Source: an uncultured cyanobacterium (GTDB lineage: Bacteria; Cyanobacteriota; Cyanobacteriia; Cyanobacteriales; CAWCAG01). From it: a DNA stretch of 64,000 nucleotides. The notes beneath the pieces are model-generated. The model was not told where the DNA came from, ran no database searches, and saw only the letters and a list, made by a program, of their open reading frames with translations. The position numbers and the translations under genes were made by a program. The DNA lies in assembly GCA_963793425.1 (NCBI GenBank), contig CAWCAG010000001.1, positions 288,001 through 352,000 of the forward strand. The letters run 5' to 3'. Positions 14,097 to 17,343 of the stretch are shown one piece after another (positions within the stretch are counted from its first letter, which is position 1; each line of letters starts with the position of its first letter).

Positions 14097-17000
14097 TTAA
14101 TTCCCTCCTTCGCTTTGCCGTAATTCCTCCATTTCTTCTGGGGTGAAAGGATTATTCCCTTGCTTCAAAGCAGCTAGCCAACGTTGGCGCTTAGCTTTTA
14201 ATTCTTTTCGCTTATCAAACAAATCACTATCTACAACTGCTTGAAAATCTGCGATCGCCCCCGAAATATCTCCAGTTAAAGCCCTTGCCAGTCCGCGAGT
14301 ATCTCGGCATATCTCCTTATTAGGAAGAAGCTTTACTAACTTCTCCCCAGCAAAAATAACATTGGCAGCATAACCATGTAAGCAACCATATTTACAAAGT
14401 TGATACCAAAACTGAGGAGATATTTCTAATTTGGGGTCTAGTAGTTGCGCTTTCTGATAAGCAGGGAGTGCTTTATCAATTTCTCCTTCTTTTGCTAAAT
14501 CATAGCCACGACTCAACTCTATCGCTGCCTGAAAATTGGCTTCTTGGGCTAAAGCTTCAGGAATATTATCTGCTTTGTGTAAACCAATAGCATTTGACCA
14601 ATTTGTACCATTATTCCATTTAATATCGCTGAGGTGGGCGTAACTGAGGTGGGCGTTACTGAGGTGGGCGTCACTGAGGTTGGCGTTACGGAGGTTGGCG
14701 TTACGGAGGTGGGCGTAACTGAGGTTGGCGTTACTGAGGTTGGCGTACACTGAGGTTGGCGTTACTGAGGTCGGCGTTACTGAGGTGGGCGTTACTGAGG
14801 TTGGCGTCACTGAGGTCAATGGGTTACTAAGGTCAGTCGTAACTGAAAAATTTGCCAACTAAGGAAGCAAAACTAAAAACTCCAAGACAGTCAATATAAC
14901 CAATCAAACGCAACAAACGCTGATCATTAAAATCCTCTGTATCAGGCTGACCACAAGGATAAAAAGTAACCTTATCCTTCAACTCTTTCTGCGACTGCCC
15001 ATAACGATGCAACTCCAACAGCAAAATCAAAACATTCAAGCCAGTATAAATATCAACCTGTCGCTGCCCCCTTTCAACATCGTACTTTTGCAACTGCCTC
15101 CCCTTGCGTTGCGGTAAAGTTTCCTCCGTAGACTCAATAAACTCCCCATCACTCCAACGCAAATAAAAATCATGCAACCTCTCAAACAACGCCACGAAAT
15201 CAGGTTGACTTTGAATCAACAAAGGAGTTAAATAACCCACAACTTCCACCGTCAAAGCCCCATAACCAAACAGATCATAAACTTGCCAATCCATCTCCTT
15301 AGTAGAAACAACGTAGGTTTTACGCCGCTTCCCAGCCTTCTGTGTCCATTCTGTCAAACTCTCTACCATCCTTTCAGCACAAAGAAACTCACCAAAACTT
15401 TTATGAAAAAACTCCACACAATTCTCTGCACCGGGACTAGATTTAAGATAAAAAGCCGCTAAAGCATTCTTAAGAGGATTCTTCTCATCCTTTTCTCTTG
15501 CATTTGCTAAAAGTTCCTTCGCCGCTTCATCTTCCTTCGCCGTCAAACGCTCTTCAATCGTCGCCACCGCCGCATATTCCCGCCCCGACTGCACCACACA
15601 TAAACCAGCTTCCGCTAAAATGCTCCGTAAGTCTTCCGATTCTAAACCAGTAATTTCCAGGTTTAAATCCTTGCCTGCTTCCCTTCTCTGTTTCTTCAAC
15701 ACCCAATCAATGGCCCTTTCATAAATTAGCACCTTGGGGTCAACGGGATTATCTTCAGCAAACATCTGGGTTTGTAAAACATCATCCCGGTGCATTGCGG
15801 CGAGAAGATACAGCAAAAGAGGTTCTTGGGCCAGAATTTTTATCTGTTGGGGACAGCGTTTTTCTTTAAGAAATGCTTGGAAAGCTTCTGTTTTCTCCTT
15901 AGCTTTGCTGGCATCTGCATCAACAACCTTTTCCCAACAACTTAACCACTTCCTTTGAATAGTTTCCGACATGGTTAAAATAGCAACCCGCCCTAAATTG
16001 CCATGTCGTAGGGAACGTTGAATACCATAAAGGGCAAAAGGTCTACCCGTAATCACAACCCTATGCCCCCTTTCTTTATTCTCCTTGCATTGTTGCTGAA
16101 ACTTCGCTACTTGGTCTAAAAAACTCTCTAAACCTTGATTCGCCCCCCTTTCTAACAGCAACTCATCAAAACCATCCAACAAAAACAGAAAACGAGTATT
16201 ACGATCTGTCAGCCAACCATGATCACTGGTTGCAAAATCCCTGCCCACTGCTGCTTGCAGAGTTTTATCAAAATTAAACTCAAAAGTACTAACATCCCGC
16301 AACCGAATTAAAATCGGTGTCCAAATCGGATAAAATTCTCGCCCTATTCTATCGGCAAACATCCGACAAAAAACACTTTTTCCTCTACCTGGGCCTCCTT
16401 GAATAAAAAGAACTTGCCCTTGCTTTCCCTCATCCTGTAAGAGATTCAGCGCCCAATCTTCAATACTTTCCGGGTCAGCAAATTTGTTAATTTCCCCATC
16501 TTCTTTAACAGATTTAACCTCCAGGGGAACATAAACATCCTGGAAACTAAACTCTTCATCAAAAACCTTTTCCTGGGGTTTTTTGGCAATAACCTCTTCT
16601 AAATAATCATCAATACTTAAATAAGCTTCCTCTTCCCGTTGCCAATCCCCACCATAAACAAAAGCCAACTTCTTCACCGCATCTCCCGCTTCAACAAAAG
16701 CCCGTTTCAGATAACGATGAGTATTGCGGCTAATTCTTTCTGTAACAATTTCTGCTTCTGTTTCCCTTAACCCCGCTTCCTGGAAACGTTTTGTCAGCAA
16801 TTGGTTAAAAGCCTCGGCTAAATTTGACTCATGAAAACAGAGTAAAACCTTTCTCGCTTCGTTTTCATCTAAAGGAAATTCCTGGCCATTGAGTTCTAAC
16901 TTTTTTCCCAGGTTTTTAATTTCTTTGCCCAGGTTTTTAGAAACCTTTTCTTCATTAAACTGCTGGTGAATCTCCGGATGGGTTTTCAGGAATCTCTGCA

Positions 17001-17343
17001 TACTCTCCAAATATGCCCCCTGACTCACCAAAGCAATGCAAACTTCTAAACTCGGTTCCTTTCTATTTTTCTCGACATAGAAAGTCAAAATACCCGTAAC
17101 CAAAGGCAAAAAGGGCAAACCCGCCTCAACAACTTTCCCCAACGGCGAATCAAGAACATCTAACAGCGAATCAACTTGCCCCAGAAACGGCTCTAACTCT
17201 CCCTTCTTCTCATCTAAAGTCTCCGCCAGTTCAAAAAAGCCCTGAAAAGCTTCAATATAGTCTTTACAAGTATCCTGAGTAAAAAACTCGCTAACATCAG
17301 TATTGAGAACGCGCCAGACATCATGCCAAATATTTTTAACCAT
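14097..17343 (-). pseudogene. NACHT NTPase with pentapeptide repeats and C-terminal TPR-like region; frameshifted within the repeat array as assembled
   Basis: Walker A GGPGRGKS, Walker B FLFLLDGFDE, EFFHKSFGEFL. Three insertions (+1, +2, +1) at ~14745-14840 split it into ORFs 14833-17343 and 14097-14858; A(N/H/D)L(S/R)(N/Y/D) repeats are followed by TPR-like helices. Confidence 0.85.
14628..14846 (-). repeat. 15-nt tandem array encoding pentapeptide repeats (consensus GCC AAC CTC AGT AAC)
   Basis: 12 GCC-initiated units plus two degenerate 5' units, read directly. Confidence 0.95.

What the first reader, a model, noticed from the sequence alone, without database searches (positions are those of the whole stretch)
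14628..14846. Pentapeptide array varying only at adenines: candidate hypervariable (DGR-like) receptor region
Seen: in the 11 central 15-nt units (consensus GCC AAC CTC AGT AAC) every difference falls on consensus adenines. Position 4 is A/C/G (N/H/D), position 10 is A/C (S/R) and position 13 is A/G/T (N/D/Y). All changes are non-synonymous, with no third-position or non-A change. Two of the frameshifting insertions look like merged alleles at codon starts (GTAC = GAC+TAC; GACT = GCT+ACT), as a consensus over a heterogeneous population could give. Known: DGRs produce A-to-N changes in AAC-rich codons; pentapeptide arrays are not a classic DGR target to my knowledge. Caveats: the second A of AAC never varies, and no RT or template repeat is in this window. 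Slippage or gene conversion plus diversifying selection is the alternative.
Basis: partly seen in the sequence, partly recalled or inferred. Interest (0 to 1): 0.72.

Follow-up and report, generated by a model that had tools for sequence, protein, structure and literature searches.

The report
Self-shuffling repeat sensor, not a DGR
The variable 15-base repeat array lies in the likely sensing part of a cyanobacterial immune-receptor-like gene and is probably reshuffled by recombination between its own near-identical repeats, not by a diversity-generating retroelement; its adenine-only pattern likely arises because asparagine codons sit at the exposed, variable positions.

Summary
In the 11 central 15-nt units every substitution is non-synonymous and falls on consensus adenines 4, 10 or 13. 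The DGR reading fails. The genome's real DGR (contig C6) has a template unlike the array, and no template-like copy exists elsewhere. That DGR changes both As of AAy codons (16 and 15 of 24); the array changes only the first (9 and 0 of 22). In 12 homogenised orthologous arrays the same residue positions vary whatever base is there (alleles per site: G 1.30, A 0.78). Sediment strains carry non-A alleles.

The array belongs to an NNH3-NACHT-pentapeptide-TPR gene; an intact orthologue's model matches NLRP3/NOD2. It behaves like the highly conserved, concertedly evolving repeats of fungal HET-E: inward residues fixed, outward residues mixed, unit number and consensus turning over (14 versus 33 units in a congener). 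The frameshifts are probably assembly errors.

Selection for ligand recognition is inferred only: phage stand-alone pentapeptide genes show the same pattern. The scan noted this protein family and a WD40 analogue before, on other DNA.

The parts
14833..17343 (-). 5' part of the NLR-like gene (836 aa as assembled; ends at the first insertion in the array)
   Evidence: orthologues continue in frame into pentapeptides
16543..17196 (-). NNH3 N-terminal helical domain (PF22735, residues 50-267)
   Evidence: E 3.9e-57
15955..16413 (-). NACHT NTPase domain (PF05729, residues 311-463); Walker A GGPGRGKS 16375-16398 and Walker B LFLLDGFDE 16162-16188 intact
   Evidence: motif labels from established knowledge
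14625..14838 (-). Pentapeptide array, 14 units of 15 nt, consensus A-N-L-S-N
   Evidence: PF00805
14640..14805 (-). 11 central homogenised units varying only at unit positions 4, 10, 13 (residues i-1, i+1, i+2)
14806..14838 (-). Two irregular first units (16 and 17 nt, +3 nt in all); the extra bases are absent from sediment contigs that cross the junction
   Evidence: X1, X2; X3
14745..14760 (-). 16-nt unit with one extra base (GTAC); the base is left out in 3 of 3 runs whose contigs cover it
14097..14624 (-). C-terminal cap, linker and TPR region of the same gene (TPR match about 14430-14513)
   Evidence: same tail in frame in L011, L013, L055, L057, L058, L060, L062

Best explanation
The array encodes the pentapeptide beta-helix that likely serves as the sensor of an NLR-like NNH3-NACHT-pentapeptide-TPR protein, and it is likely kept near-identical and reshuffled by recombination or slippage among its own 15-nt units (concerted evolution), not by reverse transcription. 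Shown: the architecture; the homogeneity; turnover of unit number and consensus between close relatives; fixed inward residues (A at i-2, L at i) and mixed outward residues (i-1, i+1, i+2). Inferred: exchange between misaligned units at any register makes hybrid units, so a small palette of alleles is recombined. Neutral synonymous variants are purged by homogenisation while selection keeps several amino acids at exposed positions, as in fungal HET-E/HET-D WD40 sensors, so each allele would display a different surface to a ligand that switches on NACHT oligomerisation. The A-only look arises because this lineage's consensus has Asn (AAC) at the two most variable residues, and N/D/H/Y differ only at the first codon base. 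The frameshifts are likely consensus errors in the assembly.
For: Architecture. The model of intact orthologue L011 (mean pLDDT 82.7, 5-residue strand periodicity over about 830-920) has NLRP3, NOD2 and NLRC4 as best PDB matches (E 1.6e-10 to 6e-10, TM 0.27-0.32). Homogenisation: 13 of 40 orthologous arrays have unit identity >=0.78 (threshold chosen after seeing the data), with lineage-specific fixed Ala codons (GCC, GCA or GCT). Turnover: congener G001, 92-99% identical across the NACHT part, has 33 units ending mostly AGG/AGC against 14 units ending NAC here. Shuffling: all four allele combinations in 2 of 3 site pairs here and in at least one pair in 13 of 13 arrays; neighbouring units are more alike than shuffled order (lag 1 z=3.1) and there is no 4-unit face periodicity (z=-1.1); sediment contigs reuse the same alleles at positions 4, 10, 13 in new places. 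Selection: pN at outward codons exceeds pS in 13 of 13 arrays and pN at inward codons is near 0; alleles seen in >=2 units per site are 0.70 outward non-synonymous, 0.16 synonymous, 0.04 inward. Residue geometry: PMC7337050, passage (i-1 and i+1 point outward, i forms the core, i+2 takes polar or charged residues). Frameshifts.
Against: No function was tested and no ligand is known. No PADLOC match, NCBIfam antiphage models are far below cut-off, and the neighbours are housekeeping-type genes. With singleton alleles counted, the outward excess is weak (1.19 vs 0.86 per site, P=0.07; 0.98 vs 0.57, 11 of 13 arrays, with terminal units dropped), and the arrays are not independent. Four phage stand-alone pentapeptide genes without NACHT show the same homogenised, non-synonymous pattern (picked by a pattern that favours such codons), so the selection may be biophysical rather than recognition. 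27 of 40 orthologous arrays are not homogenised. Duplicated multi-unit blocks were not longer than in shuffles. In this array alone, zero synonymous alleles of 5 is not significant. Four-allele combinations can also come from recurrent mutation.
Confidence: 0.6

Rival explanations
1. Same recombinational homogenisation, but the mix of outward residues is kept for biophysical reasons (charge balance, solubility, avoiding misregistered or aggregating perfect repeats) or is nearly neutral. The beta-helix is then a spacer or scaffold between NACHT and TPR, not a specificity determinant.
For: The same pattern occurs in 4 of 4 phage pentapeptide genes and in a non-NACHT cyanobacterial gene (L075). 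There is no face periodicity. Unit number varies widely (14 to more than 40). The palette is small and polar. The all-allele test is not significant.
Against: Within this genome only the NACHT-linked run is homogenised (0.85 against <=0.63 for 44 others, including the paralogous NACHT gene's array at 0.51). Palettes differ strongly between lineages (Y/K, T/F/H, C, R/G), which a single biophysical optimum does not predict. The position matches the predicted sensor slot (Kibby et al. passage).
Confidence: 0.33
2. The array is a variable repeat of a diversity-generating retroelement acting in trans, with an unassembled or self-contained template.
For: 5 of 5 alleles at A; 13 of 16 contig differences at consensus A sites; the genome has an intact-looking DGR with Avd and RT; DGRs do target NACHT proteins, through CLec domains (PMC10907252 passages).
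Against: The TR (C6:10400-10521) matches two CLec VRs and aligns to the array no better than shuffles (score 8 against mean 8.4). There is no second copy of the array and no 30-nt stretch obeying the template rule with fewer than 3 non-A mismatches. The second A is never changed (9:0 against 16:15 in the real VRs, Fisher P=0.015), although G at that position of codon 5 is the commonest state in relatives. Non-A alleles T and I occur in sediment strains (3 of 16 rows), and G/C alleles in G001 and L016. There is no A bias in 12 orthologous arrays or in other homogenised arrays of this genome (A 0.22 against G 0.39 per site). No DGR-type RT was found with this query in 8 of 12 genomes with homogenised arrays. 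No RT lies within the fetched flanks of 8 loci that share the unit.
Confidence: 0.03
3. The unit variation itself is an assembly artefact of a perfect repeat read with noisy long reads.
For: The array has indel errors typical of unpolished repeats, as do 7 of 17 other arrays and the G001 array (5 one-base deletions).
Against: Short-read contigs from independent samples match 14630-14696 with no difference (X1 record of 67 nt) and show the same alleles. Errors would not avoid synonymous and inward sites.
Confidence: 0.03

Closest known systems
Fungal HNWD NLRs (Podospora het-d, het-e) with high-internal-conservation WD40 repeats (PMC12222747; abstract and passages)
   Same: NACHT protein with a C-terminal repeat region of 80-100% internal identity, length polymorphism, variability confined to a few non-synonymous positions, and assembly errors in the array.
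   Different: Bacterial; 15-nt pentapeptide beta-helix units instead of WD40 blades; followed by a TPR region; NNH3 instead of a HET effector; unit number seems loosely constrained; no ligand or phenotype known.
Bacterial NACHT (NLR-related) proteins with superstructure-forming repeat sensors, including pentapeptide repeats (Kibby et al., bioRxiv 10.1101/2022.07.19.500537; passages)
   Same: N-terminal helical domain, NACHT, C-terminal repeats; cyanobacterial; pentapeptides are named there as a predicted antigen-receptor-type sensor.
   Different: The passages I read do not discuss DNA-level homogenisation or shuffling of the pentapeptide units.
Bacterial NLRs with highly internally conserved WD and TPR repeats (Dyrka et al., bioRxiv 10.1101/2020.01.06.895854, passages; Hu et al., PMC5587647, passages)
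   Same: High internal repeat identity in bacterial NLRs; the authors suggest a fungal-like regime of rapid diversification.
   Different: 'Pentapeptide' occurs 0 times in the Dyrka text; the regime was proposed there, not measured, in the passage read.
Cyanobacterial and clade-5 DGRs targeting CLec domains of STAND proteins (PMC10907252, passages; PMC7159879, passages)
   Same: Variable C-terminal region of a STAND/NACHT protein in a cyanobacterium; this genome has such a DGR on C6.
   Different: No TR for this array, no CLec fold, no adenine specificity across the family, second adenines untouched.

Membership tests
Diversity-generating retroelement target | DGR reverse transcriptase with accessory gene in the genome | tested here: met
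   C6:9264-10334 RT frame; Avd NF033474 E 1.4e-38. It is on another contig and has its own targets.
Diversity-generating retroelement target | Invariant template repeat homologous to the variable region | tested here: not met
   assembly 98.6% complete in 9 contigs, so an unassembled template is not fully excluded
Diversity-generating retroelement target | Random change at template adenines, including both As of AAy codons | tested here: not met
   9 and 0 of 22 in the array against 16 and 15 of 24 in the true VRs; non-A alleles in strains and orthologues
Diversity-generating retroelement target | Variable region in a CLec or Ig-like fold | tested here: not met
   Pfam gives pentapeptide and TPR only
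Bacterial NLR-related NACHT protein | NACHT NTPase with intact Walker A and B | tested here: met
   fold matches to NLRP3/NOD2/NLRC4 for orthologue L011
Bacterial NLR-related NACHT protein | Tripartite layout: N-terminal module, NACHT, C-terminal repeats in one chain | tested here: met
   In frame in orthologues; interrupted by indels in this assembly, and those bases are absent from sediment contigs
Bacterial NLR-related NACHT protein | Ligand-triggered activation with defence or cell-death output | not testable with these tools
   No PADLOC match; no enzymatic effector domain recognised
NLR with high-internal-conservation repeats (HNWD-like regime) | Repeat units 80-100% identical at DNA level within a gene | tested here: met
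   0.85-0.90 here; 13 of 40 orthologous arrays >=0.78
NLR with high-internal-conservation repeats (HNWD-like regime) | Concerted evolution with length polymorphism | tested here: met
   14 against 33 units with a different consensus in G001; lineage-specific fixed synonymous codons; sediment strains differ at the 5' junction
NLR with high-internal-conservation repeats (HNWD-like regime) | Diversifying selection at a few surface codons | tested here: inconclusive
   pN outward > pS in 13 of 13 and a strong excess among spread alleles, but weak with singletons, arrays not independent, and the same pattern in phage non-NLR genes
NLR with high-internal-conservation repeats (HNWD-like regime) | Repeat alleles determine recognition specificity | not testable with these tools
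   Needs swap and binding experiments
HNWD gene family proper | HET effector domain and WD40 repeats | tested here: not met
   NNH3, pentapeptide and TPR instead

The most novel reading that the evidence does not exclude
A widespread cyanobacterial NLR subfamily uses a pentapeptide beta-helix as a combinatorial receptor. Recombination among 15-nt units reshuffles three exposed residues per unit fast enough to change recognition specificity within populations: an RT-free counterpart of DGR-diversified sensors, and the shortest-unit version of the fungal HET-E mechanism.
Probability: 0.35. Interest if true: 0.62.

Novelty: new variant of a known kind. Interest (0 to 1): 0.36.

Why it matters
It removes a false DGR lead. 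It also shows that pentapeptide arrays of one cyanobacterial NACHT subfamily evolve like the concerted, variable repeat sensors of fungal NLRs. The functions of cyanobacterial pentapeptide proteins are almost unknown (PMC8145042, abstract). Natural alleles that differ almost only in array length and exposed residues give a ready series for testing whether the beta-helix is a ligand sensor. Practically, these arrays break or corrupt assemblies (contig ends, N gaps, frameshifts), so such genes are likely mis-annotated as pseudogenes.

Tried and rejected
DGR template: blastn of the gene region against the genome found no second array copy. A scan allowing any base to be A in the template gave 18 hits of 30 nt, all with the maximum 3 non-A mismatches, and 1 hit of 45 nt with 6; I judged these chance. 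The other six RT matches look, from their sequence and context, like RT-Cas1 fusions (3) and stand-alone retron- or defence-type RTs (3) (labels are my reading, not tested); none is on the array's contig.

Phage-borne template: a two-unit pattern found 4 viral contigs, all in coding pentapeptide genes with no RT in the fetched flanks. It was found in 3 of 300 other genomes of the order.

Raw reads: only Logan contigs of 5 DNA runs were listed and no RNA holder was listed. I laid 4 of the 5. No contig spans the array, so within-sample allele frequencies and unit numbers could not be measured.

Higher-order block duplication: not above shuffles in any of 13 arrays. Four-unit face periodicity: none. 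Mobility of the gene: G001 has it in another context, but all neighbouring genes are scattered there too, so this is uninformative. PADLOC: no match.

Literature: nine searches listed no paper that, from title, abstract start or passages read, describes concerted evolution of NACHT-linked pentapeptide arrays. The library lacks most subscription papers. The journal version of Kibby et al. was not held and bioRxiv supplements are closed.

Rows dropped: the 11 weaker loci L024-L026 and L030-L037 (distant paralogues) and 5 loci without an array (L039-L041, L059, L061) were not in the 40-array table. Units with indels were left out of G000 and G001 counts. 3 of 21 arrays were dropped because the TRF consensus length differed from the period; the 21 were hand-picked. 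In one search two of ten arrays gave no usable units and some others include frame-shifted units.

Full report
What is there. The window is C1:288001-352000 of a 5.28-Mb, 9-contig assembly; the gene content, heptamer repeats and relatives point to a cyanobacterium. The array lies on the minus strand between an 836-aa ORF (14833-17343) and a 253-aa ORF (14097-14858). Pfam gives NNH3 and NACHT for the first and pentapeptide and TPR for the second. Orthologues show these are one gene: 18 of 40 related genomes have a match at E <= 1e-20, and most close ones run in frame from NACHT into pentapeptides, several with the same TPR tail. A model of the intact orthologue L011 (mean pLDDT 82.7) has NLRP3, NOD2 and NLRC4 as its best PDB matches. 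So this is an NLR-like NACHT protein with the array in the slot that Kibby et al. predict to be the sensor (passages).

The observation. There are 14 units over 14625-14838. In the 11 central ones, substitutions occur only at unit positions 4, 10 and 13, all consensus A and all non-synonymous; three units carry +1, +2 and +1 extra bases. Five distinct alleles underlie this. All five at A has P=0.004 on uniform sites, 0.02-0.10 if change is limited to the exposed codons, and 0.04-0.08 on the position profile of orthologous arrays. No synonymous allele among five has P=0.33. The pattern is real, but mild once protein constraint is allowed for. What is exceptional is the homogeneity: 0.85 mean unit identity against at most 0.63 in 44 other pentapeptide runs of the genome.

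The DGR test. The genome has seven RT matches, one of them a DGR on C6 with Avd, a TR at C6:10400-10521 and two CLec VRs. It serves as an internal control: 17 of 18 and 17 of 19 VR differences fall at TR adenines, and the first and second As of AA-starting codons change 16 and 15 times in 24. In the array the counts are 9 and 0 of 22 (Fisher P=0.015 for the ratio). The TR does not resemble the array, and no template-like copy was found. Among 12 other homogenised orthologous arrays, distinct alleles per consensus site are G 1.30, A 0.78, C 0.62, T 0.58; positions 4 and 13 vary whether the consensus there is A or G. Other homogenised TPR, LRR and HEAT-like arrays of this genome also show no A bias. 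A DGR-type RT (>=55% identity to the C6 enzyme) was found in 4 of those 12 genomes and not found with this query in 8 (divergent RTs or incomplete assemblies could be missed).

Related strains. Contigs of four sediment runs from one study hold the locus. They are other strains, since they differ by about 3% just upstream of the array. Of 16 listed differences within the array, 13 are at positions 4, 10 and 13 and use only alleles already in the window's palette; 3 are at consensus G (A to T once, S to I twice). All mapped ones are non-synonymous (15 mapped by script, the 16th adjoins the indel). Some differences may be units laid in the wrong register, but the T and I alleles do not exist in the window's central units. 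The extra base at 14748 is left out in 3 of 3 runs that cover it, and contigs crossing the 5' junction lack 18 bases, a multiple of three. With 1-nt frameshifts in 7 of 17 other homogenised coding arrays of this assembly and 5 one-base deletions in the G001 array, the indels are most likely consensus errors. That is inferred, not shown for this strain.

How the array evolves. The congener G001 is 92-99% identical across the NACHT part but has 33 units ending mostly in AGG or AGC, so unit number and consensus have both turned over. 13 of 40 orthologous arrays reach 0.78 unit identity, with different synonymous Ala codons fixed in different lineages: the signature of concerted evolution. All four allele combinations appear in 2 of 3 site pairs here. 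Adjacent units are slightly more alike than expected, and there is no four-unit periodicity and no excess of duplicated blocks; this fits fine-grained exchange. Inward codons barely change. Outward codons keep pN of 0.19-0.35 while pS is 0-0.25, and pN exceeds pS in 13 of 13 arrays. Alleles that have spread to two or more units are 0.70 per outward non-synonymous site against 0.16 per synonymous site; with singletons the excess shrinks to 1.19 against 0.86. The arrays are kin, so these P values overstate. The outward and inward assignment follows PMC7337050 (passage) for i-1, i and i+1; i+2 is described there only as polar or charged.

What this does not show. Four phage genes encoding stand-alone pentapeptide proteins have the same homogenised arrays with almost only non-synonymous variation, as does a non-NACHT cyanobacterial gene (L075). 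They were found by a pattern that favours such arrays. Still, they show the regime is not peculiar to NLRs, and selection for mixed surface residues could be biophysical. There is no PADLOC match, no recognised effector and no defence-island context. I put about 0.9 on recombinational shuffling over DGR action, and 0.6 on the full reading with a sensor role.

Comparison with what is known. It works like the fungal het-d/het-e sensors: repeats over 80% identical, kept so by concerted evolution, with a few diversifying surface codons (PMC12222747, abstract and passages). It is not a member of that family. [quoted passage not shown] NACHT-pentapeptide proteins are catalogued. Nine searches listed nothing on concerted evolution of NACHT-linked pentapeptide arrays; supplements of the bioRxiv papers could not be seen and may bear on this. 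Earlier notes of this scan reported the same protein family in Trichodesmium, a WD40 analogue and a near-identical pentapeptide array in an exported protein; I treat them as leads only.

Verdict. Observation confirmed; DGR reading rejected; a new repeat-type variant of a known kind of NLR sensor evolution, with function untested. Interest 0.36.

Noticed in passing
G000:C6:7150-11521 (L005): A complete classical DGR: Avd, RT, TR at C6:10400-10521 and two flanking CLec (FGE-type) target genes whose VRs differ from the TR almost only at adenines. G001 has a 96% identical RT.
   Followed up: yes
G000: C1:356438, C5:1990458, C9:51110, C5:1765085, C7:1255, C9:634503, C5:1941377 and others: Many other homogenised coding arrays (TPR 120/126/102 bp, LRR 66/69 bp, HEAT-like 93 bp) with variation concentrated at a few residues per unit; several carry 1-nt frameshifts in this assembly. 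One LRR array precedes a P-loop domain (Roco-like, from recall).
   Followed up: partly
L070-L073 (viral contigs): Phage stand-alone pentapeptide proteins of 190-260 aa with 18-23 near-identical 15-nt units that vary almost only non-synonymously; two related contigs (L070, L072) differ in array content.
   Followed up: partly
G000: C6:51757-53730, C2:2727-4736, C8:29199-31196: Three long RT frames whose C-terminal halves look like Cas1 (RT-Cas1 fusions, my reading); C2 and C8 copies are nearly identical, and one sits near a Cas2-like ORF.
   Followed up: no
window:14097-14624 versus L009: The TPR tail is only 83% identical to the congener's at DNA level while the NACHT part is 92-99%; the tail is absent from many orthologues. 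It may be a second fast-evolving or exchangeable module.
   Followed up: partly
G000:C7:28081-32655 (L037): A paralogous NACHT-pentapeptide gene (29% identity) whose array is not homogenised (0.51) and ends in an acidic tail; a conserved sister clade useful as a control.
   Followed up: partly
window:19394-22182: A 586-aa dehydroquinate-synthase-like sugar-phosphate cyclase with a long N-terminal extension, followed by a DUF6492 gene; possibly a small-molecule biosynthesis pair.
   Followed up: no
window:13652-13744: 13 copies of a 7-bp repeat (GTAATAA) downstream of the DCC1-like gene; similar heptamer arrays occur across the window and in G001.
   Followed up: no
L076 and L047: Orthologues with rearranged C-termini: L076 has two pentapeptide blocks each followed by the capping motif; L047 has small Cys-rich inserts in and after the array.
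   Followed up: no
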